Source: a virus
Direction: 5' to 3' (one strand)
Virus record (IMG/VR): IMGVR_UViG_3300012642_000011
Coordinates: 192,001-256,000 of that record
DNA: 64,000 nucleotides
Shown here: positions 27,451 through 63,452 of the stretch, one piece after another
How positions within the stretch are numbered: the stretch's first letter is position 1
How the letters are laid out: each line of letters opens with the position of its first letter
The notes under the pieces: generated by a model
The model's database searches: none
Seen by the model: only the letters and a program-made list of their open reading frames with translations
What the model was told of the DNA's origin: nothing
Translations under genes and position numbers: made by a program

Positions 27451-27831
27451 CGTAGGTTTTTATTTTTTTGAGGGGGCTGCGCTCGCGGTGGGGGAGGTTT
27501 TTTAGGGACACAGTTTGGGGAGAGGAAATAATTTCATGGGGAGAGTAATAATTCTGGTCATGGTAGTGTATGCTGGTGTGGTGTTTTATTTCTTAGGGTG
27601 TGCTGTCGCCGTGGTCAGGTTGGAGTGTGCTGTGGGTTTGTGTTGTGTCGGCGGGGTAGTGAATTCGTGAGTTGACTTTTATTGTTCTCTGTGTGAGCAT
27701 GTTCTCTGTGTGAGCGTGGGAGATATAATTCGGTTGTTGTTGCAGTGTAGTGTTTGTAATGTGGTGCGACCCGCTGTTCTCCCGTGTGGGGTACTGGGCG
27801 GGCCGCTTGTGATCGTGGGGTCAGGCGTCCA

Positions 27832-27933
27832 TGTCGTCCATCTGGTCGGCAACGTAGCCGGAGCTCTTCGTGAGGAGGAAGAGGAAGATGGCGAAGTAGA
27901 GGATGATGAAGATGATTTCCATGATGTTCTCCT
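27832..27933 (-). CDS. 34-aa hydrophobic peptide (MEIIFIILYFAIFLFLLTKSSGYVADQMDDMDA)
   Basis: SD plus ATG preceded by conserved leader (catgatgttctccttgtggagtgtggggg); below the ORF-track size cutoff, translated by hand. Confidence 0.35.
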
Positions 27934-28164
27934 TGTGGAGTGTGGGGGTTTGGTCTCTTCCCTTGCCCTGTTGATGGTTTAATCATAGCATGGGGGACGC
28001 TCCATGCGCAAGGTGGTGTGGGAATTAATTTGTCGTGAAGTGGCCCGCTGTTTTCTCGTGTGAGGTACTAGGACGGGCCGCTTGCTGCCGTGGGACGGAC
28101 ATTTGTGTGCTGCTGGTTGGGTGCAGCAGTGTGTTTCCTTGTGGTTGGTGGTGTTGCCTTTGGT

Positions 28165-28311
28165 GTCAGCCGAGGTTGTTCCAGTGGGTATCGGGGGTGT
28201 GTCGGGGCTGGGTCTTGTCGTATCGCACGGTCTGGGCCTTGGGGGTGGGGTTGAGGGCGAAGAAGGATGCGATCACGAGGGTGGCGATGACGATGAGCAG
28301 GGCGGTCATGG
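28165..28311 (-). CDS. about 48-aa membrane peptide (MTALLIVIATLVIASFFALNP...)
   Basis: SD aaggagaacacc-ATG; hand translated. Confidence 0.35.
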
Positions 28312-28578
28312 TGTTCTCCTTAGGTGTCGTTGTTGGTTTAATCGTATCATGTGGTTTGGGTGTTGTCTATGTGTGCTGGTGTTCGTGTGTGGTTTTATTT
28401 AGGGACACAGGTTTGCGTAGTGGTGGTTTTCGGTTTAATTGTTCATGTTGAGTGTGTGCAAGTGTCCTCTCCGTGCGCAAGTGTCTTCTCCATGCTACCA
28501 CACGCACGCTTGCATATGCAGGAACGCTTGCACACGCCTCCCTGTGCAAGCGTTGTGTGGAGTGTTCTTGTGGGTGTG

Positions 28579-28899
28579 TTAGCCCATGAGGTAGTTGCTG
28601 TATGCGTTGGAGCATCGTGGGGAGCATACGCTGTCGTTTCCGGCGTCTTCTACGGAGAAGGTGTCACCGCAGTTGAGGCATTTGGCCCAGTGTTCTCCGA
28701 GGATAAGGATGCGGAGGTTGATGGCTGCGATTTCTCTGTGTTCTGGGTAATCACTGTTGAGGTTTTCTAGGGTGCTGGTGATGTGTTCTCGTTTGGGGTC
28801 GTTGGGGTCGAGGTTGTTCACGTATTCATTGATGGCGTGGTCTGTGAGGTTGGGGTGGGAGAGGAGGATGTTTACTTTGAGGTTGTTGATGCTTGTCAT
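28579..28899 (-). CDS. 106-aa protein with C-terminal CxxC...CxxxC zinc-ribbon-like motif
   Basis: ORF with SD; CLNCGDTFSV...CSPRC. Confidence 0.45.
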   Translation of the reverse strand: MTSINNLKVNILLSHPNLTDHAINEYVNNLDPNDPKREHITSTLENLNSDYPEHREIAAINLRILILGEHWAKCLNCGDTFSVEDAGNDSVCSPRCSNAYSNYLMG

Positions 28900-29124
28900 T
28901 GTGTTCTTCTTTCTCTTTGTATTGATGTGATGCCGTTTTTTGTTGTGAACGTGGGTAGTGTTGTTGTTTTATCGATTTCTTCTAGTTTCTTTGTCCATTC
29001 TTGTATCTGTTGCTGGTGTTGGTTTTGGTTGGTGTGATGGTGTTCTCCCTGTTGGTGGTTTTGTTTATTGTGTCGTTTGTGTTTTCTTTTCATGTTTTAC
29101 CTAGGGGCTGTATGATTTGTGCTT

Positions 29125-29383
29125 TTAATATGCGTGTTTTATTGGGAGTGTTCCTTTTCGCATGAGTGTGGTGAAGGTCCAGATGCAGGCTAGTGTGGAT
29201 GCCAGCGGCCAGAGTGGGGCGATGATGGCGATGAGGGCACCGATTTTGCGCATGTGTAGTGAGCGGTTTGTGACGTAGTTGGTAGTGTTGCTTCCTACGC
29301 AACCAGCTACGATCCAGAGGGCTACGGTGACAATCGACCATACGGTGAGGATTGTGATGTATAGAGTGTCTGGGTTGTTCATG
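29125..29383 (-). CDS. small 2-TM membrane protein
   Basis: Start at MNNPDTLYITIL; hydrophobic helices. Confidence 0.4.
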
Positions 29384-29384
29384 G

Positions 29385-29846
29385 TTAGTTCTTCCTTACC
29401 TTCCATGTTCCGATGATGACTTTTTCTCGGGCGATGCATTTTCTGATTTCAGAGTCGGATGTCCATATTCCATACCAGTATCCACCTATACCGAGTACGG
29501 CTTTCTGGGTGCGCCATGTTTTTCCGCATACTACGGCTTCGATAAAGTTACGGTTATCTGCGGGGATGATGACTGTTTTTCGTGTCTGGAAGATGGTGTC
29601 AGGCTGTTTCTCGCGTCGGATTGTGAGCGTGATGCCGTCTCCTTCGCCGTAGGTGATCCATCTGCCGTCTTCGCTTCGGCACATACCATAAGCATCTCTG
29701 TGGTGGAAGATTCCTTCGCGGCGTTCGATGACGGTCATCCCGTTCACTTTTCTTTTCCACACCCATGTGAGGTGGTCTCCCAAGATGGCGTCGTTGGCTC
29801 GTGCGTTCTCGATGATCTGCATGTTCGTGTGATCTTGTGTAGTCAT
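29385..29846 (-). CDS. paralog family A member 1 (unknown function)
   Basis: Shares N-terminal M..Q.IENA...D.L.GDH.TW and C-terminal ITIRR..K...T..IIPA motifs with the 30000..30467 and 31186..31638 genes. Confidence 0.55.
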   Translation of the reverse strand: MTTQDHTNMQIIENARANDAILGDHLTWVWKRKVNGMTVIERREGIFHHRDAYGMCRSEDGRWITYGEGDGITLTIRREKQPDTIFQTRKTVIIPADNRNFIEAVVCGKTWRTQKAVLGIGGYWYGIWTSDSEIRKCIAREKVIIGTWKVRKN

Positions 29847-29999: not shown

Positions 30000-30467
30000 C
30001 TACTTTACATGTACCGTTGATGATGTTTTCTGGGGCGACCGAGGTGTGCAGTTTATAGGATATGTCCAATTTCTTATCTGATGTGAGGATAACTTTAAAC
30101 TCTCGCCATGCTGCTTGCCATTGTCCATTGTGGTCAAGGACGGCTTCACGTGCTCTGTACTTTTTCCTTCTACCACGGCTTGGATGCGTTCATGCCCGTC
30201 AGCGGGGATGATGGCTGTCATTGGTTTTGTGGGGAGGGTTGTTTGTAGGGTTCTGTGGATGGTGAGTTCGCTTTCGCCTGCTGTGATCCATGCACCTTCT
30301 TTGTTTTTCCAGTCGCCGTTTGCGTCTTGGTGGTAGGCGGTTCCTTCGCGTTGTTGTGTGACGGTGATCATGCCATCATGGCGGGTCCGTGTCCAGATGA
30401 GGTAGTCACCGGGGAGTACGTCTTTGCATTTGGCGTTCTCGATGGTCTGTATGTTATGATTGCTCAT
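30000..30467 (-). CDS. paralog family A member 2
   Basis: MSNHNIQTIENAKCKDVLPGDYLIWT... homologous to family A members 1 and 3. Confidence 0.55.
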   Translation of the reverse strand: MSNHNIQTIENAKCKDVLPGDYLIWTRTRHDGMITVTQQREGTAYHQDANGDWKNKEGAWITAGESELTIHRTLQTTLPTKPMTAIIPADGHERIQAVVEGKSTEHVKPSLTTMDNGKQHGESLKLSSHQIRNWTYPINCTPRSPQKTSSTVHVK

Positions 30468-30690: not shown

Positions 30691-30748
30691 CAATCACTAA
30701 CGGCCCGCTGTCCTCCCGTGTGGGGTTCTAGCGGGCCGTTAGTGATTG
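30691..30748. terminator. long hairpin (18-bp stem) with conserved loop TGTCCTCCCGTGTGGGGTTCTA (type-1 hairpin family)
   Basis: caatcactaacggcccgc[loop]gcgggccgttagtgattg; same loop recurs at about 27756, 28044, 32670, 33540, 34418, 35157. Confidence 0.6.
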
Positions 30749-30787: not shown

Positions 30788-31191
30788 TCAGTCGTGCGTC
30801 TTGGGGCGTCGAATCGTGATGCCGGTGATTTCTCTCTTGCCATCGCCCCAGTAGTCATCCTTGAGCATGACAGTTCCCCACGTCACATGATCTCCGACTC
30901 GGATGTGCTTGCCGGTATCGTCGTGGATGATTTCCATGTTGTCGTTGATCTGTTGTGCCGTGTTGTTGGGGGTGGCTTTACGGTTCTGCAGGTCGTTGAA
31001 GAAGTACACTCCCCAGATGCAGAGGAAGGGGAGAATCATGAGGCAGATCATGAAGTAGACGGCAGCGGTTGCATCGGTCAGCACGGGGGTGATGTCTGCG
31101 ACCATCCATGCGAGCAGGTTGTTGAAGGGGTGAGAGGCGTGCGCGTAGTTGAGCGTTTCGATGAACGTCTCGATCAGCGTTTCAATCATGA
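30788..31191 (-). CDS. family A-related protein with N-terminal TM extension
   Basis: Start MIETLIETF after SD ggagagagcatc; C-terminal GDHVTWGTVM...ITGITIRRP aligns with family A. Confidence 0.45.
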
Positions 31192-31638
31192 TGCTCTCTC
31201 CTTCGTCTTCCATGTGTCTGGGGTGATGTAGCTGGCGTACATTTCATAGGTCGAGTGGTCGTTCTCGCCCCGCCAGACACCCACCCAGACACCTTCTGTT
31301 GCGTCGTAGGTGGCATGGCGCGTCGTGTAGGTCACCTCGTCCCACACGGCCTCGATAACTCCGTGGGCAGGGATGATCTGTGTGCCGTCCTCCGTGGGGA
31401 GGCTCTTGACGGGGCGGCGGATCGTGATGGCGCTGCCATTGCCGTCGCCACCCGCGATCCACATGCCGTCCTCGGCGCACCAGTCGTCGTCCTCGTTGCG
31501 GTGGTGGGCGATCCCCTCACGGATTTCGGTGCAGGTCACGCCGCGCGCCGCCCAGGTTTTTTTCCAGGTGATGTGGTCGCCGGGGAGCACGTCGTCAGGG
31601 GTCGCGTTCTCGATGGTCTGTACGTTCTGCTCGCTCAT
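31186..31638 (-). CDS. paralog family A member 3
   Basis: MSEQNVQTIENATPDDVLPGDHITWKKTW...ITIRRPVK. Confidence 0.55.
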   Translation of the reverse strand: MSEQNVQTIENATPDDVLPGDHITWKKTWAARGVTCTEIREGIAHHRNEDDDWCAEDGMWIAGGDGNGSAITIRRPVKSLPTEDGTQIIPAHGVIEAVWDEVTYTTRHATYDATEGVWVGVWRGENDHSTYEMYASYITPDTWKTKERAS

Positions 31639-31743
31639 TCTGTTCTCTCCTTCAGAAGAAATTGGTAGGGAGTGCTTTGCTCTGTGTTGTCCTCCCTGTT
31701 AACGTGATTATTTTACCAAGCGAGGGGACGCTCTGCTGTTTAC

Positions 31744-32496
31744 TCAATCGGTGGATCGAATTACAGCGTTGTTCTTCAGCCACGTTTCACCAGACACCAG
31801 CGCATCACCGAATACATCTGCTCGCTCGGATACCCACGCGTTATCACACACGTGTGCATTGCCGGACACATTTGCCATACCGAAAATCATCGCATTACCG
31901 GACACCAACGCATTTCCAGACACGCGTGCGTTACCAAATACCCATGCTGTGCCGATCACTCGTGCATTGCCGTCCACGCCTGCATTGCCAGACACGCATA
32001 CGTTGCCAGATACGTAGGCGTTATCAGTCAGCATGGCCTTACCAACCACCAGTACATAACCGGAAACTCGTGCGTTGCCAGTTACTCGCGCGTTGCCGGT
32101 CACCCACACGTCGTCAGTCACTCGCGCTTCGTACTCCACTGTCGAGTTGCCTTCTACGCGTGCGTTGCCGGACACTTCTGCGTTCTCGAAAACCTCTGCG
32201 TTACCGTACACCCACGCGTTGTCGGTTACTCGCGCGTTATCGTACACCTCCGCTTCACCGGACACTCGCGCGTTGTCGGTTACTCGTGCGTTACCGTAGA
32301 CTACTGCGTAGTCGAATACTCGTGCATCATCGGCTACCCAAGCGTTTCCTGAAAGGTTACCCAGATGTTCCACATATCCGCCGAGATCACCGGCCTTCAC
32401 GTCATGAGTAGGCAGGTCTCGTGTGGCTCGGATACGGTGGAGCGTGCGACCTTCATAGTGAATTGTTTCATCTGTTAATTCGAAGTGAGCGCTCAT
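31744..32496 (-). CDS. hexapeptide-repeat (left-handed beta-helix type) protein, about 29 consecutive [GD]-N-A-x-V-x repeats
   Basis: Strict 6-residue period GNARVT/DNARVS/GNAEVF... after about 60-aa N-terminal domain; SD aaggagag plus ATG; the opposite-strand R/H-rich ORF 31662..32411 is its shadow. Confidence 0.6.
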   Translation of the reverse strand: MSAHFELTDETIHYEGRTLHRIRATRDLPTHDVKAGDLGGYVEHLGNLSGNAWVADDARVFDYAVVYGNARVTDNARVSGEAEVYDNARVTDNAWVYGNAEVFENAEVSGNARVEGNSTVEYEARVTDDVWVTGNARVTGNARVSGYVLVVGKAMLTDNAYVSGNVCVSGNAGVDGNARVIGTAWVFGNARVSGNALVSGNAMIFGMANVSGNAHVCDNAWVSERADVFGDALVSGETWLKNNAVIRSTD

Positions 32497-32723
32497 GTTT
32501 TCTCTCCTTAAGTAAGGTTAACTCTGGTTTGTCATTCTCATTGGTGATCGTATATTACCACAAGAATACGACATAAACAAGACGTGTATAAAACTTATGG
32601 TGCGTATTTGCGCTTGTTATCGTTGTGGACTGTCGTTGTCGATAGGGACACAATCCAGTAATCCGTGAAAGAAGAATGCCCGCTATCCTCCCATGTGAAG
32701 GTCAAGCGGGCATCCGTAGTTCG

Positions 32724-32975
32724 TCAGGGCTGAAGAAGTTCATTCATGTAGTCGTGAGCATCCTTGGCGTTGTCGAACGTGGCGAGGGTCTCGCACGTCT
32801 GATCGTCCCAGATGCTCACGGTAGCGTTCTTATGCGCGAGGTAGAACAGGTTAGAACTCACGTAAATGTTTGCTTCAGTCTGGACATCTCCGAACATGAT
32901 GGATGCGCGAACCACCTCGGGCTTGCTAAGGGAAGTAGTCTCCATCTTGGTCAGTTCATTCAGGACGGTCTCCAT
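32724..32975 (-). CDS. hypothetical 83-aa protein
   Basis: Conserved leader catgatgatctctccttg upstream. Confidence 0.45.
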   Translation of the reverse strand: METVLNELTKMETTSLSKPEVVRASIMFGDVQTEANIYVSSNLFYLAHKNATVSIWDDQTCETLATFDNAKDAHDYMNELLQP

Positions 32976-33077
32976 GATGATCTCTCCTTGTGAATGGTAG
33001 GTGTTCGCCTAAGTTGCTTTTCTTATTGTTGGAATCAATCTATCACGGGGGACGTGACGCGCGCAACTCTTAGGTTT

Positions 33078-33371
33078 TCAGATCAGCACACGCATCATGT
33101 CTGTGTCATCAATGGGGGCAAGCACACCGGCTCTCATCAAGTCGTGAGCAAACGCTGTACCGTACTTGCTTAGCGTCACCACGTTCTCGTGAGCGTGACG
33201 AGGATCGCGGATACCGATGACTTCACCCTCATCAGCAGTCCACGCGAGAAAGCGAAGCAGCAGGGTGCCATCGGTCTTCCAGACGGCGACAGCCTCATTG
33301 AAGTGGTTTCCGATGAAGGGGATCTTGAAGGGTGCAGTGGTAATGGCGGTGGTCTTGAAGATGCTTGCCAT
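33078..33371 (-). CDS. hypothetical 97-aa protein
   Basis: SD aggagaacatcATG. Confidence 0.45.
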   Translation of the reverse strand: MASIFKTTAITTAPFKIPFIGNHFNEAVAVWKTDGTLLLRFLAWTADEGEVIGIRDPRHAHENVVTLSKYGTAFAHDLMRAGVLAPIDDTDMMRVLI

Positions 33372-33615
33372 GATGTTCTCCTATGTTTGTACGGTGAGTA
33401 TCAAGGCAATCGTATCAGGCTATCAGCCTATTGTCTACATCATGTTTCGAGATCATTATGGCTATGTGGGGACACAGTAATAGGCTGCAGGATTGGACTT
33501 TTCCTATACCCGATTGTGTGATTGTTTTCGGATGCTGCGACACAATAGCCCGCCGTTCCATCGTGTGAGGTACTAGGCGGGCCATTGCTTATCTACTGTC
33601 TGCGATCAGCGCGGA

Positions 33616-34315: not shown

Positions 34316-34471
34316 GATTGTCTCCATGTCGATGATTGTTTTATCGAATGATAGCATATGGTTCTTTTGGTAGCAAGGTGGGGGCATGGGGACACGGAAT
34401 TATCACTAGGAAAGAACAACGGCCCGCTGTCCTCCCGTGTGTGGGATTCTAGCGGGCCGTTGCGGTTGGGG

Positions 34472-34885
34472 TCAGTCGCCCTCGCCATCGGCGCTAGTCT
34501 TCACGTCAATGTCCGGCACGACGTTCTCCGGCTTGAAGATGACACGATGATGGTACTCGCTGACATCAGCAGAATCAATCTGCTCCGCAATATAAGTAAC
34601 GTTGTCAGACAGGCCAAGGAAATGCTTCTTGTACTCGTTGGGGCCAATCTTGCATGTTACCTCAAGCTGACCATCTGCATCGACAATAGAGCATCGACCC
34701 TCTACCGTAAGCATGTACTTATCCGTGATTCCATTGTAGAAAACCACACGGCGATTGATTTCAAAGTTGTCTGCAGCAGTCGAAAGATTGTCACTAGCCC
34801 TTGACGCGCCAGACTGACAGCCGGTAAGCCCAAGGACAAGAGCACATGCGGCACCAACAAAAGCAAGGTTCTTCTTCTTATTCAT
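34472..34885 (-). CDS. secreted lipoprotein
   Basis: Signal peptide MNKKKNLAFVGAACALVLGLTGC with lipobox LTGC. Confidence 0.55.
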   Translation of the reverse strand: MNKKKNLAFVGAACALVLGLTGCQSGASRASDNLSTAADNFEINRRVVFYNGITDKYMLTVEGRCSIVDADGQLEVTCKIGPNEYKKHFLGLSDNVTYIAEQIDSADVSEYHHRVIFKPENVVPDIDVKTSADGEGD

Positions 34886-35200
34886 TACTCTCCTAATAGA
34901 TGTTTAAAGATGTGAACGTGGTTGATTCATTCGAGGTGATGGGCGGGTGTTTGTTCACGACATGTTATCTCCTTGAAAGCATTGGTCTTATGTTGTTCTC
35001 TTGATCTGATGCTCTCAATGTACAATAGGAACTCTTCACAGTCAAGTCAAGTCGAAGAAATTGTCGTGACGTGTGTAGGTTTTACGAAGACAAGTGTACG
35101 CTTCACCTTTAGCGGGAGGTTAAGGGACACAATTTAAACATCCCGTTATGAAGACAACGGCCCGCTGTCCTCCCGTGTGGGATTCTAGCGTGCCGCTGGT

Positions 35201-40777: not shown

Positions 40778-40860
40778 GTTCTCTCCTTGAGAGTGATGGT
40801 CTTGGGTTGTTCCCTTGACCTGATGAATCAATAGTACCACGAGGGACGCTCCATGTTCAA
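40778..40860 (-). promoter_or_regulatory. conserved promoter-leader module (copy A): -35 TTGAAC, 18-nt spacer containing GGAGCGTCC, -10 TACTAT, leader stem-loop GGTCAAGGGAACAACCCAAGACC, SD AAGGAGAG
   Basis: Near-identical modules at 44490-44573, 45776-45860, 46231-46320, 51853-51930, 52454-52537, 52948-53035, 53523-53607, 55109-55200, 56213-56296, 57233-57300, 61043-61127 and degenerate copies elsewhere. Confidence 0.65.
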
Positions 40861-42175: not shown

Positions 42176-42424
42176 ACGCACGGATCGACCCGCTCTACTC
42201 CTCATAGGGTGGGCGGGTCGATCTTTTGCGCAGGAGCAGGGGACACAGAATGTGAGCATTGACTGCATCTGCACCTGCTTCCCGTGGTGGTGCCACAAAG
42301 CCCCCACTGCTTCCGGGCGCACCACACAGCGCCACACGGTTCTGACTTGCACTCGGCTCATCATGCTGGTAACCTGATTCCTGTCAGCAACCGCTGGCAC
42401 TGCACTCTGAACAAGGAGACCATC

Positions 42425-43453: not shown

Positions 43454-43906
43454 ATGTCGAAGACCGACTGGACTGCTTTCGTGGATGCCGCCGACTCCAT
43501 CCGCACGCGTGGCGACGAGCAGACGCACCTGATCTACCCGGACGGCACCTTCGAGGTGTTCGAGCGCTACAGCACCGACGCTCCCGACACCCCCGAGGAC
43601 GCGCTTCAGTGGGAGGGCAAGGACGACGAGGAGCGCGACGTGATCACGGGCGCGCAGGGGTGGAGCATCGCCGAGGGAATGAGCGGGGCGTTCCGCTACG
43701 ACGGCCCTCTGATGCACGAGTCGGAGTTCTTCTCCCCCGGCATCCTCTCCTGCCTGATGTGGGACCGGGACGCTCCCCTGCTGGTCGCCACGGCGCATGT
43801 GGCTGACTACTCCCCCGAGGCGTACGACGAGGGCGAGGAGGACTCTCAGGTGGGCGAGGTGTTCTCGTGGGTGACCCTCTACCGCGAGCCGGAGACCGAC
43901 GACTGA
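43454..43906 (+). CDS. hypothetical acidic 150-aa protein
   Basis: SD aaggggagaaaac-ATG; terminator hairpin ccccgcctgactcccacgaggatgatggcgggg downstream. Confidence 0.5.
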   Translation: MSKTDWTAFVDAADSIRTRGDEQTHLIYPDGTFEVFERYSTDAPDTPEDALQWEGKDDEERDVITGAQGWSIAEGMSGAFRYDGPLMHESEFFSPGILSCLMWDRDAPLLVATAHVADYSPEAYDEGEEDSQVGEVFSWVTLYREPETDD

Positions 43907-44108
43907 CCGACACTACCAACGCCCCGCCTGACTCCCACGAGGATGATGGCGGGGCGTTGTGTTGTGGGGGGAATCGGGAACAGGGGACACAATATGTGTC
44001 ATCAACGACAACGGGTTACCACGGCGAACAGGGTGACGCTGTGTGGACATGCGAACGCCCCGCCCGTGCTCCTTGGTCCAAGGGTTCAGGCGGGGCTGTC
44101 GTGCTGGT

Positions 44109-45775: not shown

Positions 45776-45999
45776 AATACTCTCCTTGTGGAGTCGTGGT
45801 CTTGGGCTGCTCCCTTGACCTGATGAATCAATAGTACCACGGGGGACGCTCCGCCGTCAAATCTATCAATCGTGGTAGTGCTATAACATCTCGGATTGGT
45901 CGAGGCGCTGGATGACTTAGGTATCAGGGGACACAAGAATTGCGACAACGAGGATAAGAACACGCCCCCATCCTCGCGGTAAGGATGGGGGTGTGTGAG

Positions 46000-51248: not shown

Positions 51249-51453
51249 GGTGCCAGCCTACAGGACAAGAGGAAATAATGCAAGCCTGATGCTCTGCTTG
51301 TTTTTGCCTCATATTGTGTCCCCTTGGGCGTGCCATCATGTGCGCGCGTGGGGACACAGAATTCGAGAGTAGTCATGAACCACGATGAGCACACACGCGC
51401 CGCCCCGCCGTTCATCCTCTGGGGACTACTTGGCGGGGCGAGCGGCTTGCAGG

Positions 51454-52084: not shown

Positions 52085-52453
52085 TCAGCGAGAGGTGTTC
52101 AGAACCGAAAAAAGGTCATTCATAAGCATGGCGGCAACACGGTTCCGTGACGCCTCATCTGCAGGCACGGGAACGTCCGACATTGCCATGTGGATGAGCC
52201 TCTTCGTCTGGTCAGACAGGAACTCCTCGGCGATCTGGGTATCGGTCGCACCGGCGTCACGCTTTCTCTTGAGGTTGCCAGCAATCATCTTACGATGGCG
52301 GGCGTCCATGAAAGCCTTGAGGTCATGAGAAGAGATCGTTTCAACAAGGTTCGATGTGCTTGCGACCTCTACAGCCGACTTGTAATCCCCCTCAGCACGA
52401 TTGATGAACTGGTCGATGATGAACGTGACGATGTCCTGCTGATCCTGCTCCAT
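52085..52453 (-). CDS. hypothetical 122-aa protein
   Basis: Conserved module G upstream. Confidence 0.5.
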   Translation of the reverse strand: MEQDQQDIVTFIIDQFINRAEGDYKSAVEVASTSNLVETISSHDLKAFMDARHRKMIAGNLKRKRDAGATDTQIAEEFLSDQTKRLIHMAMSDVPVPADEASRNRVAAMLMNDLFSVLNTSR

Positions 52454-52537
52454 GATGTTCTCCTTGAGAGTGTTGGTCTCGGGCTGTTCCCTTGACCTGA
52501 TGAAATGATCTTACCACACGGGACGCTCCACGGTCAA
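52454..52537 (-). promoter_or_regulatory. conserved promoter-leader module (copy G): -35 TTGACC, 18-nt spacer with GGAGCGTCC, -10 TAAGAT, leader hairpin, SD
   Basis: -10 at + strand 52508-52513, -35 at 52532-52537. Confidence 0.65.
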
Positions 52538-52642
52538 TCTTTCCATGAAACTTCATGCATGAATGGTTCCGCGTTCGGACCTATTCATGCATGGCCCCTC
52601 CCCTGTGGGGACACAATATGGGTGACCACTGTGCGCACGATA

Positions 52643-53522: not shown

Positions 53523-53607
53523 GGTATCTCTCCTTGAGAGTTTCGGTCTTGGGCGGTTCCTTCGACCTGATGAGACCATCCTACATGATAGGACGCTCCA
53601 CTGTCCA
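53523..53607 (-). promoter_or_regulatory. conserved promoter-leader module (copy I): TGGACA-18-TAGGAT
   Basis: -10 at 53578-53583, -35 at 53602-53607. Confidence 0.6.
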
Positions 53608-56212: not shown

Positions 56213-56296
56213 GCTGCTCTCCTTGAGAGTGGTGGTCTTGGGATGTTCCCTTGACCTGATGAGACCAGACTACACGATAGGACGCTCCACTGTCCA
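56213..56296 (-). promoter_or_regulatory. conserved promoter-leader module (copy K): TGGACA-18-TAGTCT
   Basis: -10 at 56267-56272, -35 at 56291-56296; leader hairpin GGTCAAGGGAACATCCCAAGACC. Confidence 0.65.
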
Positions 56297-56433
56297 GTCG
56301 AAAACCGAGAATCTTTCTCCAGAAGGCAGACGGAGCGATCAGGGGACACACATCGAGGCGCGTGTGCGAAGCAGAAACGCCCCGCCATCGTCCTCTCGGG
56401 TGAGGAGTCAGGCGGGGCGGTCTCGGAGTGCTC

Positions 56434-56601: not shown

Positions 56602-56842
56602 TGCTCTCCTTGCTCGGAGTTTGATTGACATGACCATGATAGAACGCGTTTGATGTTCATGTCAAGAGGTTTTCCAGAATTCCAGAGAGCGATCTTCGTG
56701 ACGGACTCATCGAGTGAGCGTGGTGGTTGCTGTCTGGGTGAGCAGGGCAAGGGGACACAGTATTCGTGAGCGCGGTAACGCGATGACACCGCCACGCCCC
56801 GCCTGTACTCTACCACAGAGGGACGGCGGGGCGCTGTGTTAT

Positions 56843-57232
56843 TCAGTCCGCGATCAGAACACCCTGCTCAACAAGGTAGTCGATCATCTTGGAGCGCACC
56901 AGCACCCAGCGGGAGCCATCTCCCTCGAAGTCATCACCGATGGTCTCCCACAGGAACTTGGAAGCATCCTCCATGTGCTCGATGCCGTTCGTGTAGAAAG
57001 TCGGAGCGGACTCAAGCGCCTGCTCACTCATGTCCACACCCAGTGCCACCATGATGACACGATCCTCGGGGCCGTCGTAACCGTTGTCCGTGGCCTCCAT
57101 GACCTCGGGGACGGGCACGCCGCGCTCAATGTGAGCCTCGAAGACCTGACTGATGAACTCGATCTCCACCGTGAGGTCGGGGAAGTTGTCGATAGCGTCG
57201 AAGACCTGATGATCGGTGACCTGCTTCATGTA
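56843..57232 (-). CDS. hypothetical acidic 129-aa protein
   Basis: Start MKQVTDHQVF; module L upstream. Confidence 0.5.
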   Translation of the reverse strand, partial: YMKQVTDHQVFDAIDNFPDLTVEIEFISQVFEAHIERGVPVPEVMEATDNGYDGPEDRVIMVALGVDMSEQALESAPTFYTNGIEHMEDASKFLWETIGDDFEGDGSRWVLVRSKMIDYLVEQGVLIAD

Positions 57233-57774: not shown

Positions 57775-59120
57775 ACAGATGCTTAATTACATGCTTTTTG
57801 CTATACTATAATGTAGAAACGGGAAGAAGGTGAAAAATGATACTCACAGAGAAGCATGTGATTCGCAAAAATCACATGAACTTCAATGAGTGCGATCATC
57901 TCGCTTTCTTGAGCAAGAATCTTTACAATTCTACTCTTTTTGCCGTTCGCCAGCACTACTTCAGTAATGGTGAATACCTTAACTACAATAATGCAAATAA
58001 AATCTTCACCATAGAGGGACAAAGCGACTATGTTGCCTTGCCCAGAAAAGTCAGCAAACACACAATGATGCTGGTGGATCGTTCTTTCAAATCCTTTTTC
58101 AAACTCTTGGAGAAGAAAAGAAATGGAGAATATGACAAAACCGTAAGAATCCCAAAATACTTAGACAAAACAAAAGGTCGTCAAGTTGTTCATTATGAAA
58201 AAGGGGCATTGTCCTTCAAGAAGAAGGAGGGGTACCTCTATCTTTCACAGACTAACATATATTTGAAAACCAAGGTAACTTCGGATCAAATTCAATTTGC
58301 TAGAATCGTCCCTCGGGGTGAGCATTATGTGATTGAGGTGGGATATAGGGTTCCTCAGGTAGATAATCTTCACGATAATGGGCGATACCTGTCCCTTGAT
58401 CTTGGGGTGAATAATCTTGTCACAGCAGTGAGCAATGTGACAGCCCCGATACTCTTCAATGGGCGACCATTGAAGAGTATCAATCAGTTTTACAATAAGA
58501 GATTTGCATCCCTTCAGTCTAAACTCGGAGAGGAGGTGAAAAGCAGTAAGCAGATCAAGACTTTGCATCAGAGAAGATTGAACAAAATCAATGATTATCT
58601 CCACAAAGCCTCAAGAATGTTGGTGAATCACGCAGTTGAAAACTCTATCAATACTATAGTTATTGGATACAATAAAGAGTGGAAACAAGACATCAACATT
58701 GGGCGAAGAAACAATCAGAATTTTGCCTCTATTCCTTTTGCAAGGCTTATTGAGATGATTGAATACAAGGCTTCTCTTGTTGGTATCAACACCATCAGAC
58801 AGGAAGAGTCCTATACTTCCAAGTGTTCCTTTCTTGACGATGAGCAGGTGAGGAAAGCCAATTCCTATTCAGGAAGAAGGGTGAGTCGAGGTCTTTTCAA
58901 GACTGGGCAAGGACTTCGCGTTAATGCTGATGTGAATGGTGCCTTGAATATCTTAAGAAAAGCACTGAAAGTATCATGGAATGACCAGTTGTGGTCAGAC
59001 TGTGTAGCGGCGTGCAGTGTGCCGAAGCGGGTCAATATACCAGCTTGAAATGTTAATTCATGTTTATCATGTTTTCAACTAACTGTCCATCTTCTCGTTC
59101 ATCGTAAGTATTTTTTCTCC
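57775..59120 (+). mobile_element. second low-GC IS1341-like tnpB-only element (about 1.35 kb, with about 75-nt AT-rich tail after tnpB stop)
   Basis: AT-rich island; tail ...gtaagtattttttctccttgggaatag is the likely right end / omega-RNA region. Confidence 0.55.
57837..59048 (+). CDS. tnpB: TnpB-like RuvC-fold protein (zinc-finger Cys largely lost)
   Basis: RuvC-I LSLDLGVNNLVTAV, C-terminal YTSKCSFL...NADVNGALNILRK; only one Cys where CxxC...CxxC is expected. Confidence 0.75.
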   Translation: MILTEKHVIRKNHMNFNECDHLAFLSKNLYNSTLFAVRQHYFSNGEYLNYNNANKIFTIEGQSDYVALPRKVSKHTMMLVDRSFKSFFKLLEKKRNGEYDKTVRIPKYLDKTKGRQVVHYEKGALSFKKKEGYLYLSQTNIYLKTKVTSDQIQFARIVPRGEHYVIEVGYRVPQVDNLHDNGRYLSLDLGVNNLVTAVSNVTAPILFNGRPLKSINQFYNKRFASLQSKLGEEVKSSKQIKTLHQRRLNKINDYLHKASRMLVNHAVENSINTIVIGYNKEWKQDINIGRRNNQNFASIPFARLIEMIEYKASLVGINTIRQEESYTSKCSFLDDEQVRKANSYSGRRVSRGLFKTGQGLRVNADVNGALNILRKALKVSWNDQLWSDCVAACSVPKRVNIPA

Positions 59121-60520: not shown

Positions 60521-60712
60521 GTTCTCTCCTTAGAGTGTCTGCGCGGTGTTGCGCTCTGCAATGAACTCTACCCTACGCGGTGGATCATTGTCAAAGCGCA
60601 ACGCAGTGAATGCATATGGGGACACAATACTCGCGGCAGCGCCATGAGCGCAGCAGCACAACGCCCCGCCGTTCATCCTCGGGGGACTACTGGGCGGGGC
60701 GCTGGTGGGGTC

Positions 60713-61127: not shown

Positions 61128-61287
61128 AGCCGGAATGAGTAGGGCGAACAACTTTTTCCTCCCTATGCGATGAGGGGGTGGGTGTAGCGTGAGGGGACAC
61201 AGATTGTATGATCACCACATCGGCAACACACACACAACGCCCCGCCGTTCATCCTCTGGGGGACTACTGGGCGGAGCGTGCGGTGGA

Positions 61288-61539
61288 TCAGGCGTTGGTC
61301 TGGTAGCGACGCTCCCACTCGTCCATGATGGAGTTCGCCACGCGGTTGAGGGTGCACGCGTTGGTGTCCATGAGGATGACTCGGTAGCCCTTCTTGCTCC
61401 CCGTGACCGCACCGTAGCGGGTCAGGGTGCGGGCACAGACATGGTTGATGATCTTGGTCACATCCATCTCGTCTGTGCCCTTGAACTGCGGCAGGGTCAG
61501 GGTCATCTCGCCCACGCGGTAGATCTTCATCGTCGTCAT
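61288..61539 (-). CDS. hypothetical 83-aa protein sharing N-terminal MTTMKIYRVGEMT with the 50694..51248 gene
   Basis: See duplicated 5' module. Confidence 0.45.
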   Translation of the reverse strand: MTTMKIYRVGEMTLTLPQFKGTDEMDVTKIINHVCARTLTRYGAVTGSKKGYRVILMDTNACTLNRVANSIMDEWERRYQTNA

Positions 61540-61704
61540 GGTGCCAACCTATAGGATGAGAGGGAATAATGTAAGTCTGATTGCCTGCATATTTTTGTCT
61601 TATATTGTGTCCCCTTGAAGCGAGTCATCATGTGCGCGCGTGCCAGTTGAATGCAAGAGGGCGGGTTTAGCCATGGTGCGCTCAACCCGCCCTCACGCAG
61701 TAGG

Positions 61705-62337
61705 TCACACCTCGAACGACTCCCACGTGATCGAGACCGGACGGCGCACGGCGCGCCACATGTGCTCACTACCCTCATCCTTGGAGTCAGCCATCCAGCC
61801 CATCACCTGTGGCAGAGACATGTCAGAGCGGTGAAGGTCTTCAGAGTTCAGGTGATTCGGCACAGAGTCTGCACGGGCGATGCCATACTGCCAGATCCGA
61901 CCGTTCAGGCGGTTGGTGCGAATCGTCTCCAAAGCGCGCACGTTGATGTCCTCATCGAAGTCAAGCGCCACGCGAGTGGGGAAGATTTCAGGACGATCTG
62001 CACCGTAGAAGATGATAGCTTCGTTGTGAAGGTTGTAGTCACCATCCTCAAGCAGAAGTACACCCTCACCATAGTGGATGATCGCCTTCATGGTGTCAGA
62101 GTCATCATCGAAGATCGAGTGATAACGGTCATCCTTGCTCACGCGAGCCTCGAACACCACGTCCTGACGCAGAGCGTCATGATCCTCCTTGTAGGAGGTC
62201 TCGAACTTCACGCCATGAGCGGAGAGAACGTCGTAGATGCCCTTGGCGTTCTGGTCGATGCAGCCGATCATCTTGGCGAAGTCGGGCACGTGAGCCTTCG
62301 GGATGGTGATGCGGTAGAGGGGGTGGATCTTAGTCAT
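61705..62337 (-). CDS. hypothetical 210-aa protein
   Basis: SD aaggagagagcacc. Confidence 0.5.
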   Translation of the reverse strand: MTKIHPLYRITIPKAHVPDFAKMIGCIDQNAKGIYDVLSAHGVKFETSYKEDHDALRQDVVFEARVSKDDRYHSIFDDDSDTMKAIIHYGEGVLLLEDGDYNLHNEAIIFYGADRPEIFPTRVALDFDEDINVRALETIRTNRLNGRIWQYGIARADSVPNHLNSEDLHRSDMSLPQVMGWMADSKDEGSEHMWRAVRRPVSITWESFEV

Positions 62338-62525
62338 GGTGCTCTCTCCTTGAGTAGCGGAATTCTTACTGATGTAGAGACTACCATCATCTTCTCCTCA
62401 ATGCAAGCCATGCGATCAATCAGCAAAATGAATGCCGGTCGGACTAAAGCGATAGTCCGACCGGCTTAGTCAGAAGCATTGCGCGCTCAAGCACCTATGG
62501 TGCTAACAAGAAGCATTCTTGACTG

Positions 62526-62876
62526 ATGTGTAGAAGCATACATGCTGATCAGGCAGAGCGCAACCGTTGTCTTCGTGAGGTGGGTCACGGTGTCCGACTG
62601 GCGAGGAACGCGGGTGAGGAGAATGACACGCTCATGACCGCGTTGGAGCGCTTCGGCTTCGAGGTGGATGCCGGTTACGAGAACCCCGATGACGTGGTGA
62701 TCACGAACTACAACGACAAGTATGGCGATGAGATCGTCGCCGCTCTGGAGGCACTTGCCCCGTTCGCTGTCGAGGGCACGGGGATGCAGTGGCAGGGCGA
62801 GGACAATTCCTTCTGGAAGATGGAGGTCAAGGGTGGCAAACTGGATGAGAAGAACGGGGATCTCACCTACTCCTGA
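62526..62876 (+). CDS. hypothetical protein (start uncertain; possibly Met at 62632)
   Basis: ORF only. Confidence 0.3.
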   Translation: MCRSIHADQAERNRCLREVGHGVRLARNAGEENDTLMTALERFGFEVDAGYENPDDVVITNYNDKYGDEIVAALEALAPFAVEGTGMQWQGEDNSFWKMEVKGGKLDEKNGDLTYS

Positions 62877-62949
62877 CCCCAGCACCTTGACGAGAATGCC
62901 CCCATGAGGTAGCATGGAGGCAACAAGCACTCACAGCAGACAGGAGAAC

Positions 62950-63225
62950 ATGATGAACAAGGTGGATGAGGTCAAGACCCACGATGACGCTGGTTTCCTC
63001 ATGGGTTACGAGTTCTACGAGGACAACGGGAAGTTCCGCTGGATCTTCACCGAGCACGGTCAGCCGGACGACGTGAGCAGTGCCCGCTTCGACAGTCTGA
63101 TCGATGCTCTGCGCGGGGCTTCGGACAACGCTGAGGACTCCTTCGGCTCTTACGAGGAAGCCAAGCGACTCACGCGCGTGATGCGCGGCAAGGCGACCCG
63201 ACTGGAGAAGAAGAACCAGTCCTGA
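62950..63225 (+). CDS. hypothetical 91-aa protein
   Basis: SD caggagaacATG; followed by terminator gccccgctggtgacaatgccagcgggcgtttt (63232-63266). Confidence 0.45.
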   Translation: MMNKVDEVKTHDDAGFLMGYEFYEDNGKFRWIFTEHGQPDDVSSARFDSLIDALRGASDNAEDSFGSYEEAKRLTRVMRGKATRLEKKNQS

Positions 63226-63452
63226 CGATGAGCGCCCCGCTGGTGACAATGCCAGCGGGCGTTTTCTATATTCACATTTCGTGTCCCCACTCGTCCCACG
63301 GCGCACCCGCAACAGCAATGAGCCCAGATGACAACATGAGAAGGGGATCAGTGGAGAGGTCGCCACAAGGGGACACAATATGACTATTTTTGAGAACACC
63401 ACCGCCCCGCCTGAACTCCGAGAGGGAGGATAAGCGGGGCGGTTGGTATAGA

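What the first reader, a model, noticed from the sequence alone, without database searches (positions are those of the whole stretch)
27756..63440. Two families of terminator-position hairpins with conserved, internally structured loops and covarying inner stems
Downstream of many genes there is a G+C stem enclosing a 20-23 nt loop whose sequence is conserved across copies. Type 1 at 27.7-35.2 kb has stem GGCCCGC/GCGGGCC with loop TGTCCTCCCGTGTGGGGTTCTA; the copy at 30691-30748 has an 18-bp stem. Type 2 at 43.9-63.4 kb has stem GCCCCGCC/GGCGGGGC with loops such as GTTCATCCTCTGGGGGACTACTG or GTCCCTCCGTGATGGAGTTCAG; three copies are near-identical at 51395, 60660 and 61240. Inside the loops a second small stem shows compensatory changes (CTCC/GGAG, CCTCTC/GAGGAG, CTCT/AGAG, CCC/GGG). 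Covariation is a signature of a selected RNA or ssDNA structure rather than a simple intrinsic terminator, and most copies lack a U-tract. The two families partition the array into two sub-arrays that also differ in the GGGGACACA variant used.
Basis: seen in the sequence. Interest (0 to 1): 0.65.

Follow-up and report, generated by a model that had tools for sequence, protein, structure and literature searches.

The report
Repeated two-tier terminator hairpins bounding gene cassettes
About twenty copies of one conserved double-decker hairpin sit just after the stop codons of small genes in a long array on a giant mobile element, where they most likely end transcription of each gene and serve as shared patches at which whole gene cassettes are gained, lost or swapped.

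Summary
A covariance model finds 19 copies in the window, all between 27.7 and 63.4 kb, and 4 more in the 10 kb beyond it. It finds none in the conjugation-gene half and nothing comparable in 298 kb of other DNA. The two "types" are one family: a GC outer stem of 7-11 bp, a purine-rich internal loop, a 3-6 bp inner stem and a 4-6 nt apical loop. Both stems covary. G-U and A-C counts are equal, so RNA and DNA folding cannot be told apart.

The hairpins lie 10-25 nt after stop codons and their 3' flank is U-enriched without a canonical U-run. They occupy the slot that ordinary terminators fill at other cassettes of the array. In a 95-98% identical strain variant, one cassette indel has its junction inside the hairpin.

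Best reading: sequence-conserved intrinsic-terminator-type hairpins. They are the stem-loop half of repeated regulatory cassettes that insulate each gene and mediate modular shuffling, as PeSLs do in T4-type phages. The ssDNA/oriT idea is unsupported.

Still unexplained: the internal loop reads AGUA/GAA or AGAA/GGA, the sarcin-ricin (loop E) signature. The apical domain is also kept across different outer stems, which hints at sequence-specific recognition.

The parts
27768..27804 (-). two-tier hairpin a; internal loop CAGUA/GAAC
   Evidence: model hit of 31.8 bits; fold z -5.8
28042..28079 (-). two-tier hairpin b; degenerate copy, AGUA/AAAC
   Evidence: 29.1 bits; z -3.1
30691..30748 (-). two-tier hairpin c with the outer stem extended to 18 bp; AGAA/GGAC (model core 30702-30737)
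   Evidence: 53.9 bits; -41.7 kcal/mol, z -10
32677..32712 (-). two-tier hairpin d; UGA/GGAU, 5-bp inner stem with a U-G pair
   Evidence: 26.3 bits; the minus strand folds better, -20.4 against -15.9
33547..33583 (-). two-tier hairpin e; UAGUA/GAAC
   Evidence: 30.1 bits. It is an island of homology to L037 9755-9791 between unrelated flanks
34421..34458 (-). two-tier hairpin f; AGAA/GGAC; one boundary of the cassette that is absent in variant L037
   Evidence: 57.5 bits; junction alignment A7
35159..35194 (-). two-tier hairpin g; AGAA/GGAC; the other boundary of that cassette
   Evidence: 52.4 bits; A7
34462..35153 (-). cassette present here and absent in strain variant L037: TGTGTCCC motif, promoter, Phage_VG64-like lipoprotein gene 34472-34885. 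It is flanked by hairpins f and g
   Evidence: blastn of L037 against the window; A7; Pfam PF25682 at 3e-55
43921..43955 (+). two-tier hairpin i, on the plus strand because it follows the plus-strand gene 43454-43906; UGAC/GAU
   Evidence: 28.3 bits on +; the gene is called on that strand in L037 60-512; context
44057..44096 (-). two-tier hairpin j; longer inner stem CCUUGG/CCAAGG
   Evidence: 26.4 bits
44791..44828 (-). two-tier hairpin k; weakest member
   Evidence: 23.7 bits; z -5.2
51402..51439 (-). two-tier hairpin l; AAGUA/GAAC
   Evidence: 40.8 bits
52039..52075 (-). two-tier hairpin m; AGAA/GGGU
   Evidence: 48.5 bits
52645..52681 (-). two-tier hairpin n; UGAA/GGAC
   Evidence: 55.8 bits
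53097..53133 (-). two-tier hairpin o; identical to n although its flanks differ
   Evidence: 55.8 bits; flank alignment A1
56379..56418 (-). two-tier hairpin p; UGAC/CGAU
   Evidence: 29.0 bits
56796..56832 (+). two-tier hairpin q; loop flipped relative to its minus-strand gene 56843-57229
   Evidence: 55.2 bits on + only; context
60663..60700 (-). two-tier hairpin r; CAGUA/GAAC
   Evidence: 43.7 bits
61239..61277 (-). two-tier hairpin s; CAGUA/GAAC
   Evidence: 32.1 bits
63404..63440 (+). two-tier hairpin t; loop flipped. It lies 12 nt after the stop of minus-strand gene 63453-63950. The nearby plus-strand gene has its own terminator at 63236-63259
   Evidence: 27.0 bits on +
27505..63377 (-). 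span that holds about 40 copies of ATTnTGTGTCCCC (GGGGACACA on the plus strand), one per intergenic region, 25-45 nt after the terminator hairpin where that hairpin is a family member. Four reversed copies accompany plus-strand genes
   Evidence: 44 matches against 4.6 expected; logo; relation to hairpins
52449..52537 (-). example of the repeated sigma-70-like promoter and 5' leader module: TTGACC, 18 nt holding GGAGCGTCCC, TAAGAT, then leader TCATCAGGTCAAGGGAACAGCCC and AAGGAG
   Evidence: cross-matches among at least 9 cassettes

Best explanation
The hairpins are one family of sequence-conserved, intrinsic-terminator-type stem-loops. Each closes a monocistronic gene cassette in a hyperplastic array of about 60 small, mostly orphan genes. 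The array lies on a giant (at least 332 kb) conjugative-type element that is probably hosted by an actinobacterium.

Proposed mechanism:
- On the transcript, the GC-rich outer stem forms 10-25 nt after the stop codon. It is stacked through a structured purine-rich internal loop onto a short inner stem.
- Together with a weak U-rich tail (often GUUGU), the hairpin stops or attenuates RNA polymerase and protects the 3' end. Each cassette (TGTGTCCCC motif, own promoter and leader, gene, hairpin) is thereby insulated from its neighbours.
- Because the same 36-42 bp sequence follows many unrelated genes, it also gives patches of homology at which cassettes are deleted, inserted or replaced. The repeated promoter/leader module does the same. 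Recombination and gene conversion then spread and homogenise the hairpin.

This works like the promoter-early stem-loop (PeSL) regulatory cassettes of T4-type phages.

Shown here: existence, fold, covariation, position, U-enrichment, interchangeability with ordinary terminators, and a strain-variant junction in the hairpin.

Inferred: actual termination, the recombination mechanism, and the reason the internal loop is conserved.
For: - Family and fold.
- Restricted to the array: no copy in window 1-27.5 kb; nothing above 24 bits in 298 kb of other DNA.
- Position: 10-25 nt after stop codons on the transcribed strand. Orientation follows the gene in 21 of 23 copies. Copy i at 43921 is on the plus strand behind a plus-strand gene.
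- U-enrichment: 4.26 T in the 10 nt after the hairpin against 2.10 background, p<5e-5. Mycobacterial RNA polymerase terminates at imperfect U-tracts, helped by NusG (PMC3993855).
- Same slot as ordinary terminators: nearly every one of the 40 minus-oriented TGTGTCCC motifs is preceded by a strong hairpin. About 14 of these belong to this family. The rest are unique perfect hairpins, several with U-tracts.
- Not simple segmental duplication: near-identical hairpins have unrelated flanks.
- Strain variant L037 (95-98% identity): the VG64-like cassette at window 34462-35153 is missing, and the junction lies inside the f/g hairpin. One coding sequence is swapped between the conserved leader and hairpin e. 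Three cassettes are absent next to it.
- Orthologous hairpins differ by compensatory or copy-to-copy changes, for example a (CCCC/GGGA) against L037 13666 (CCUC/GAGA).
- Each cassette has its own sigma-70-like promoter: 29 found against 9.1 expected. A leader module is repeated.
- Most cassette proteins have no Pfam family: 15 of 20.
- Precedents: PeSLs are composite promoter and terminator motifs at indel endpoints, with crossovers mapped in the stem-loop (PMC2839356, PMC4122927). TRIT is a sequence-conserved terminator motif with 147 copies in M. tuberculosis (PMC3152330).
Against: - No canonical U-run. About a third of copies have 3 or fewer U in the 10 nt after the stem. Hairpins without U-tracts did not terminate mycobacterial RNA polymerase in vitro (PMC3993855).
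- A plain terminator does not explain why the apical domain (AGAA-UCCC-ACAC-GGGA-GGAC) is kept under four different outer stems. It also does not explain why the internal loop keeps the sarcin-ricin signature.
- Only one strain variant was available, so the link between hairpins and rearrangement endpoints rests on very few events.
- Between the window and L037, hairpins change at least as fast as their flanks, so purifying selection on the sequence is not demonstrated.
- No transcript data.
Confidence: 0.6

Rival explanations
1. The hairpin RNA is a specific recognition element, not only a terminator. Its internal loop folds as a sarcin-ricin / loop E (bulged-G) module displayed between two helices. 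That module is bound by a host or element protein, for example a termination or antitermination factor, a 3'-end-protecting or processing factor such as RNase III, or a loop-E-binding protein. Through it, termination, processing or stability of all cassette transcripts is controlled together. This can coexist with the terminator reading.
For: - Eleven distinct copies read 5'-N-AGUA-[helix]-GAA-C-3' and eight read AGAA/GGA(C/U).
- AGUA-GAA is the canonical sarcin-ricin motif sequence. AGAA-GGA is on the list of sequences derived as compatible with it (PMC1865062).
- Topology and flanks match the 23S rRNA loop CUCC-U-AGUA-C-GAGA-G-GAC-C-GGAG.
- The U.A to A.G switch between the two classes is the kind of replacement expected in that motif.
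- The apical domain is conserved under different outer stems.
- Inner-stem pairs only ever keep the pyrimidine on the 5' side.
- The TRIT authors also proposed a factor that binds a conserved terminator hairpin.
Against: - The two loop classes may be just two lineages, that is one evolutionary event.
- The AGAA/GGAC class is a symmetric 4x4 loop and would need a bulged C to adopt the motif.
- T2 copies have U, not A, at the first loop position.
- Two copies (q, t) are flipped, so their transcripts carry the complement yet stay in place.
- G-U (10) against A-C (11) shows no RNA-strand preference.
- No candidate binding protein was identified, and the 3D fold is untested.
Confidence: 0.2
2. The hairpins are small mobile palindromes of the REP / REPIN / MITE kind. 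They spread on their own into intergenic DNA downstream of genes, in either orientation, moved by a transposase encoded elsewhere on the element. Any terminator activity is secondary.
For: - They are 36-42 nt imperfect palindromes, many copies, extragenic and at gene 3' ends.
- Near-identical copies have unrelated flanks.
- Two copies are in the opposite orientation.
- IS605-family TnpB genes lie in the array.
Against: - No Y1 (RAYT/TnpA) gene was seen in the window. The TnpB elements' flanks show no similar hairpin.
- Copies are single, not paired as in REPINs.
- They always sit at the same place in the cassette plan (stop codon, hairpin, motif). They are absent from the 27 kb of conjugation genes.
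- The flips can be explained by inversion between the perfectly inverted stem arms.
- No copy was found in any other genome or metagenome scanned.
Confidence: 0.1
3. The hairpins act in single-stranded or cruciform DNA. They would be recombination sites for a site-specific recombinase (an integron-attC-like cassette system), or priming or single-strand promoter signals used when the strand enters a recipient during conjugation.
For: - The array lies next to Tcp-like and Tad-like transfer genes.
- Cassette boundaries coincide with hairpins.
- The fold is equally good on both strands.
- Loop flips are what hairpin or cruciform recombination produces.
Against: - No RYYYAAC / GTTRRRY core sites are visible.
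- Cassettes are not promoterless; each has a sigma-70-like promoter.
- No integrase was seen in the window.
- The hairpins are far shorter than single-strand promoters and carry no -35/-10 boxes.
- More than 20 priming sites, one per gene, has no precedent.
- Homologous exchange between 36-42 bp repeats is enough to explain the one clean junction.
Confidence: 0.07

Closest known systems
PeSL (promoter-early stem-loop) regulatory cassettes of T4-type phages (Arbiol et al. 2010, PMC2839356; Comeau et al. 2014, PMC4122927)
   Same: - Repeated intergenic regulatory sequences, made of a terminator stem-loop plus a sigma-70-like promoter and Shine-Dalgarno site, flank small orphan genes in hyperplastic regions.
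- Each gene is a self-contained transcription unit.
- Indels and replacements between close relatives end in the repeated motif, including inside the stem-loop.
   Different: - The carrier is not a T4-type phage. It is a conjugative-type element of at least 332 kb with Lsr2-like genes.
- Hairpin and promoter are not one compact ~100-bp unit. They are separated by 100-200 variable nt that hold an extra oriented motif (TGTGTCCCC).
- The stem-loop is two-tiered with a conserved internal loop rather than polyG/polyC.
- Only about 35-40% of cassettes use this hairpin.
- Mini-circles were not tested.
TRIT, the sequence-conserved Rho-independent terminator motif of Mycobacterium (Gardner et al. 2011, PMC3152330)
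   Same: - A terminator-position hairpin with strong sequence as well as structure conservation and many copies.
- Largely palindromic or bidirectional, with a poor U-tract, in an actinobacterial setting.
- Its authors suggested a factor might bind the conserved hairpin.
   Different: - TRITs are chromosomal, restricted to Mycobacterium, and centred about 8 nt inside the coding sequence.
- These hairpins start 10-25 nt after the stop codon, have a different sequence, and are confined to one mobile element.
- No Rfam family matched the window.
Sarcin-ricin / loop E (bulged-G) RNA module, as in 23S rRNA helix 95
   Same: - The internal loop reads AGUA on the 5' strand and GAA on the 3' strand, with a non-Watson-Crick N.C pair on the outer side and a C-G pair on the apical side.
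- This matches CUCC-U-AGUA-C-GAGA-G-GAC-C-GGAG of E. coli 23S rRNA.
   Different: - There is no GAGA tetraloop; a 3-6 bp stem and a 4-6 nt loop stand in its place.
- Half the copies carry AGAA/GGAC or UGAA/GGAC in a symmetric loop.
- The fold is inferred from sequence only.
REP / BIME elements of enterobacteria
   Same: Short imperfect palindromes repeated at the 3' ends of genes. They stabilise mRNA 3' ends, can terminate transcription, and are hot spots for rearrangement.
   Different: No GTAG head, no paired (REPIN) arrangement and no RAYT gene were seen. The copies are confined to one array and keep a fixed place in a cassette plan.
Integron attC sites
   Same: A structured imperfect palindrome lies at the 3' end of each gene cassette in a co-oriented array. 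In large arrays the copies resemble one another.
   Different: No R/L core sites and no integrase or attI were seen. Every cassette has its own promoter, and the conserved part is the apical domain rather than the base.

Membership tests
Intrinsic (Rho-independent) terminator | Stable GC-rich hairpin shortly downstream of a stop codon on the transcribed strand | tested here: met
   The hairpins start 10-25 nt after stop codons. Energies are -17 to -42 kcal/mol with z -2.9 to -10. They occupy the same slot as canonical terminators of the array.
Intrinsic (Rho-independent) terminator | U-tract of about 7-9 nt directly after the hairpin | tested here: inconclusive
   T content is 4.26 per 10 nt against 2.10 background (p<5e-5). 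There is no canonical run, and about a third of copies have 3 or fewer T. The generic terminator scan misses them because the loop exceeds 8 nt.
Intrinsic (Rho-independent) terminator | Transcripts end at the element | not testable with these tools
   No RNA data are available.
PeSL-type mobile regulatory cassette | Repeated intergenic motif combining a terminator stem-loop with a sigma-70-like promoter and Shine-Dalgarno site, flanking orphan genes in a hyperplastic region | tested here: met
   Hairpin family. Promoter-like sites 29 against 9.1 expected, mostly on the minus strand. Repeated leader module. 15 of 20 cassette proteins have no Pfam family. The hairpin and promoter are separated by variable DNA rather than forming one ~100-bp unit.
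PeSL-type mobile regulatory cassette | Indels and replacements between close relatives have endpoints in the motif | tested here: met
   The junction of L037 against the window lies inside hairpin f/g. A coding sequence is swapped between the leader and hairpin e. Only one variant strain was available.
PeSL-type mobile regulatory cassette | Carried by T4-type myoviruses; cassette mini-circles form | tested here: not met
   The window carries Tcp-like and Tad-like transfer genes and no virion genes. Mini-circles cannot be tested. It is therefore an analogue, not a member.
TRIT (Mycobacterium) | TRIT consensus sequence, positioned around -8 relative to the stop codon | tested here: not met
   These hairpins lie +10 to +25 after the stop codon. 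The sequence is different, and Rfam gave no hit in the window.
Sarcin-ricin / loop E module | AGUA on one strand opposite GAA (or an isosteric variant) between two helices, with the sheared A.G next to the apical helix | tested here: met
   Eleven distinct copies have NAGUA/GAAC and eight have AGAA/GGA(C/U). Both sequences are listed in PMC1865062. The topology equals that of E. coli 23S helix 95. This is a match of sequence signature only.
Sarcin-ricin / loop E module | Bulged-G, cross-strand stacked three-dimensional fold | not testable with these tools
   Needs probing, NMR or a crystal structure.
Integron attC | R''/R' core sites (RYYYAAC ... GTTRRRY), extrahelical bases, promoterless cassettes, adjacent IntI and attI | tested here: not met
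   No core sites are seen at the hairpin bases. Cassettes have their own promoters. No integrase domain was found among the large ORFs scanned. The far end of the array lies outside the data.
REP / REPIN with RAYT | Conserved GTAG head, inverted pairs, associated Y1 transposase | tested here: not met
   No GTAG head is present and the copies are single. A Y1 transposase was not searched for exhaustively. Only TnpB genes were found.
Single-strand promoter (Frpo) or ssi of plasmid leading regions | Long hairpin (over 100 nt) that rebuilds -35/-10 boxes or a primosome site in the transferred strand | tested here: not met
   The hairpins are 36-58 nt with no promoter boxes. No strand preference is seen in pairing. 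oriT was not located.

The most novel reading that the evidence does not exclude
The hairpins are a new class of factor-dependent terminator or insulator. Their RNA would display a sarcin-ricin-type module that a dedicated host or element protein recognises. Together with the oriented TGTGTCCCC sites, which behave like stoperators, this would let the element switch a whole array of more than 60 kb of orphan cassettes on or off. Alternatively the module could decoy a protein that binds the ribosomal sarcin-ricin or loop E region.
Probability: 0.12. Interest if true: 0.75.

Novelty: new variant of a known kind. Interest (0 to 1): 0.5.

Why it matters
If the reading is right, the PeSL principle is not a peculiarity of T4-type phages. 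Under that principle, repeated promoter and terminator modules both insulate accessory genes and act as linkers for shuffling them. Here it also organises a very large accessory-gene array on a giant conjugative-type element from a different bacterial lineage. That would give a concrete, testable mechanism for how such elements turn over orphan and possibly counter-defence genes.

The hairpin is also an unusually clean natural test case for two questions:
- Can terminators with poor U-tracts work?
- Can a recurrent RNA 3D module (sarcin-ricin / loop E) be part of a terminator?

Practically, the covariance model and the TGTGTCCCC motif give markers for delimiting cassettes in this element family.

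Tried and rejected
- Rfam on the whole window: no family. tRNA/tmRNA scan: none.
- Megablast of 40 kb against phages: nothing.
- Exact or degenerate hairpin patterns in public collections: viral contigs gave 0 hits. Metagenome contigs gave 17 single hits, none carrying the TGTGTCCCC motif. GTDB genomes gave 10 single hits in unrelated phyla. All are chance matches, so no divergent relatives could be added and the host is not identified. A leader 16-mer in viral contigs also gave chance hits only.
- Relatives through proteins:
  - A syntenic but distant 65% GC relative of the transfer genes (L036) has no such hairpins.
  - Homologues of the 150-aa cassette protein lie in tightly packed phage-type operons without hairpin or motif (L038, L040, L041, L052-L054).
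  - The third homologue search, with a beta-solenoid protein, was swamped by repeats and did not return the paralogues needed to walk further along the contig.
  - All other contigs carrying window proteins are 99.8-100% identical to the window.
- Strand of folding: energies on the two strands are about equal. G-U cells number 10 and A-C cells 11. Inconclusive.
- MAFFT plus RNAalifold on raw copies misaligned the inner stem. I replaced it with a seed alignment in which one loop nucleotide of class-2 copies was removed, and then with the model-based alignment.
- Link to the two TnpB elements: their flanks show no related hairpin. Rejected.
- Pairing between the apical ACAC and the downstream UGUGU of the motif, and a Shine-Dalgarno role for the GGAGG-like 3' arm: only 3-4 nt of pairing, and no start codons downstream. 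Rejected by inspection.

Full report
**Setting.**
The window has two very different halves.
- Bases 1-26 kb are about 41% G+C. They carry plus-strand genes for a GyrA-like topoisomerase, a KaiC/RadA-like ATPase, T2SSE/T2SSF (Tad-like) proteins (one with an intein), TcpE, an AAA_10 ATPase and a ParA-like protein.
- From about 27.5 kb to the end, G+C is 52-60%. The DNA there is an array of about 60 small genes, nearly all on the minus strand and separated by 150-300 nt spacers.
- The window is part of a 332,269-bp contig (ENA ERZ27289831 k141_11150, positions 123,744-187,743, reversed). One cassette protein (the 150-aa product of 31186-31638) also lies on a contig of 437 kb. The array continues at least 10 kb past the window end.
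- Array proteins include two Lsr2-like DNA-binding proteins (one in the window, 63453-63950; one just beyond it in L013), a Phage_VG64-like lipoprotein, a GNAT acetyltransferase and a YdcK-type beta-solenoid. Fifteen of 20 scanned proteins have no Pfam family. Lsr2 points to an actinobacterial host, but the host was not identified.

**The cassette plan.**
Read on the minus strand, each unit has four parts:
- the motif ATTnTGTGTCCCC;
- after 40-100 nt, a sigma-70-like promoter (for example TTGACC, 18 nt holding GGAGCGTCCC, then TAAGAT) with a leader ending in AAGGAG;
- the gene;
- a strong hairpin 10-25 nt after the stop codon.

The next motif follows 25-45 nt later where the hairpin belongs to the family described here. 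The motif has 44 copies against 4.6 expected. Promoter-like sites number 29 against 9.1 expected.

**Check of the observation.**
- On the transcribed strand the element reads: outer stem (GGCCCGC or GCCCCGCC), internal loop, pyrimidine-rich inner arm, 4-6 nt apical loop, purine-rich inner arm, internal loop, outer stem.
- A covariance model built on 11 copies (A5, R1) recovers 19 copies in the window and 4 in the extension. It finds nothing in window 1-27.5 kb. In 298 kb of other DNA, including GC-rich phage-like contigs, no hit exceeds 24 bits.
- All copies fold as predicted, with z-scores of -2.9 to -10.
Type-1 loops also recur beyond the type-2 region, in L013 at 4259, 4722 and 6326, so the array is not split into two sub-arrays.

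**Covariation.**
- On the model-based alignment, 95.7% of cells are paired against 80.9% in shuffles.
- Nine of 12 pairs show double changes. All four inner-stem pairs alternate between C-G, U-A and G-U. The covariation score is 0.413 against 0.174, and sliding the partners drops pairing to 38-58%.
- Caveats: the alignment is fitted to the model, the copies are related, and every change is a transition.
- C.A mismatches (11 cells) are as frequent as G-U pairs (10 cells). Energies are equal on the two strands. The data support a hairpin but cannot say whether it forms in RNA or in DNA.

**Why a terminator is the best reading.**
- The hairpins lie right after stop codons and follow gene orientation in 21 of 23 cases.
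- The plus-strand copy at 43921 sits behind a plus-strand gene, 43454-43906, which the gene caller also called on that strand in L037.
- The 10 nt after the hairpin hold twice the background T content (4.26 against 2.10, p<5e-5). They often read GUUGU, part of which extends the stem by pairing with an upstream AAC.
- No canonical U-run is present. Actinobacterial RNA polymerase is reported to use imperfect U-tracts but not hairpins with none (PMC3993855). Efficiency may therefore vary among copies.
- Most telling, the slot "gene, hairpin, then the TGTGTCCCC motif" is filled at the other cassettes by unrelated perfect hairpins, several with classic U-tracts. Examples are 54144-54103, 45426-45392, 57404-57367 and 62465-62434.
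- The family accounts for about 35-40% of the array's terminators.

**Why the hairpins are also cassette boundaries.**
- Near-identical hairpins follow unrelated genes and are followed by unrelated spacers. They did not spread by simple segmental duplication.
- One strain variant was found: L037, a 17-kb contig that is 95-98% identical in blocks.
- L037 lacks the cassette at window 34462-35153 (motif, promoter, VG64-like gene). The junction is a single hairpin whose left flank is that of copy g, and whose body and right flank are those of copy f (A7).
- Next to it, the coding sequence between the conserved leader and start codon and hairpin e is replaced by an unrelated 113-codon gene. Three window cassettes (31700-33543) are absent.
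- Orthologous hairpins differ by compensatory or copy-to-copy changes, for example CCCC/GGGA against CCUC/GAGA. This suggests gene conversion among copies.
- The same behaviour is described for PeSLs of T4-type phages. Those are composite terminator and promoter motifs that flank orphan genes in hyperplastic regions, with crossovers mapped in the stem-loop (PMC2839356, PMC4122927).
- This element is an analogue, not a member. The carrier is different. Hairpin and promoter are separated by variable DNA holding an extra motif. The stem-loop has a different build.

**What the terminator reading leaves open.**
- The apical domain AGAA-UCCC-ACAC(AC)-GGGA-GGAC is kept under four different outer stems: GGCCCGCU, GGCACGCU, GGCCCACC and GCCCUGCC. 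That is the opposite of what a plain terminator predicts.
- The internal loop is the most conserved part. Eleven distinct copies read N-AGUA ... GAA-C and eight read AGAA ... GGA(C/U).
- AGUA/GAA is the canonical sarcin-ricin (bulged-G, loop E) motif. AGAA/GGA is on the list of sequences derived as compatible with it (PMC1865062).
- Strand topology and flanking pairs match helix 95 of E. coli 23S rRNA, CUCC-U-AGUA-C-GAGA-G-GAC-C-GGAG. I confirmed that this sequence lies in annotated 23S genes.
- This is a sequence resemblance only. The AGAA class is a symmetric 4x4 loop. The type-2 copies start with U. The two classes may represent a single evolutionary event.
- Two copies (q at 56796, t at 63404) have the loop inverted relative to their gene, so their transcripts carry the complement. 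Such flips are expected from exchange between perfectly inverted stem arms. They show that the position tolerates the inverted loop.
- I therefore keep "specific RNA recognition element" as a rival or add-on at about 0.2.

**Other rivals.**
- A REP/MITE-like mobile palindrome is possible but unsupported. No Y1 transposase was seen, copies are unpaired, their place in the cassette is fixed, and they are confined to the array.
- An integron-like or single-strand DNA role is unlikely. There are no core sites, cassettes have promoters, the hairpins are too short for single-strand promoters, and pairing shows no strand bias.

**Limits.**
- All but one of the public contigs that carry this array are the same clone.
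- Pattern scans of viral, metagenome and GTDB collections gave chance hits only.
- The covariation and rearrangement evidence therefore comes from paralogous copies and one variant strain.
- No transcript data exist, and the far end of the array was out of reach.

**Verdict.**
The element is best described as a conserved two-tier terminator hairpin that serves as the stem-loop half of PeSL-like regulatory cassettes. It is a new variant of a known kind, with an unexplained conserved loop-E-like internal loop that deserves an experiment.

Noticed in passing
window 27505-63377 (44 sites; for example 52608-52615, 60619-60626): The asymmetric motif ATTnTGTGTCCCC (GGGGACACA on the plus strand) has 44 copies against 4.6 expected. 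There is one per intergenic region, co-oriented with transcription. Four reversed copies (50647, 51315, 61606, 63280) lie in regions that hold plus-strand ORFs. A related CGTCCCC lies in the spacer of the array's promoters. This is the pattern of mycobacteriophage stoperators and operators (PMC9283540), so it may be a silencing site for a repressor. No repressor was identified.
   Followed up: partly
window 40804-40852, 45804-45860, 52481-52537, 53551-53607, 56240-56300 (minus strand): A promoter and 5' leader module of about 90 nt is repeated in front of unrelated genes. It reads TTGAC., 18 nt holding GGAGCGTCCC, TAnnAT, then TCATCAGGTCAAGGGAACAGCCC and AAGGAG. In variant L037 a coding-sequence swap starts right at one such leader.
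   Followed up: partly
window 56796-56832 and 63404-63440: Two hairpin copies have the whole loop inverted relative to the gene they follow, while the outer stem is unchanged. This is as expected from a minute inversion between the inverted stem arms.
   Followed up: partly
window 37786-39246 (+) and 57837-59048 (+): Two TnpB-like genes (OrfB_IS605 / Cas12f1-like TNB domains) sit in lower-GC islands (about 47%) inside the array. No TnpA is adjacent. The first is followed by a 129-codon ORF and a hairpin. Related phage-like contigs (L038, L040) also carry a TnpB gene.
   Followed up: partly
window 20800-27500: There is a sharp compositional break and extreme strand skews. GC skew falls to -0.62 and AT skew rises to +0.54 at 24-26 kb, which is A+C-rich with degenerate 17-66 nt tandem repeats. 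A G-rich stretch at 26.9-27.4 kb holds GGAGATCA-type 19-21 nt repeats. The 683-codon ORF 22489-24540 (-) has no Pfam or PHROG match. G+C jumps from about 41% to 52-60% here. It may be an origin, a partition region or a repeat protein; it was not analysed.
   Followed up: no
window 11899-14625 (+): The 908-aa T2SSE-family ATPase carries a homing-endonuclease (intein-type) insertion (PF05204 at residues 532-596).
   Followed up: no
window 29385-29846, 30000-30467, 31186-31638 (minus strand): Three tandem paralogues of a 150-155 aa protein of unknown function. Their homologues (42-71% identity) occur in tightly packed phage-type operons from skin-like metagenome series (L038, L040, L052, L054). 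Those operons lack both the hairpin and the motif.
   Followed up: partly
whole window; contigs ENA ERZ27289831 k141_11150 (332 kb), JGI Ga0118491_100001 (183 kb) and others: The element is recovered at 99.8-100% identity from many samples, and one of its cassette proteins lies on a contig of up to 437 kb. It has no close relative in the phage, plasmid or GTDB collections searched. It looks like an undescribed giant conjugative-type element.
   Followed up: partly
window 42186-42220 (minus strand); L037 1744-1778: A hairpin with a GACCCGC outer stem and a different loop. It folds better on the plus strand (-23.4 against -18.9 kcal/mol, with two G-U pairs) and is not found by the model. It may be a diverged or unrelated terminator.
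   Followed up: no
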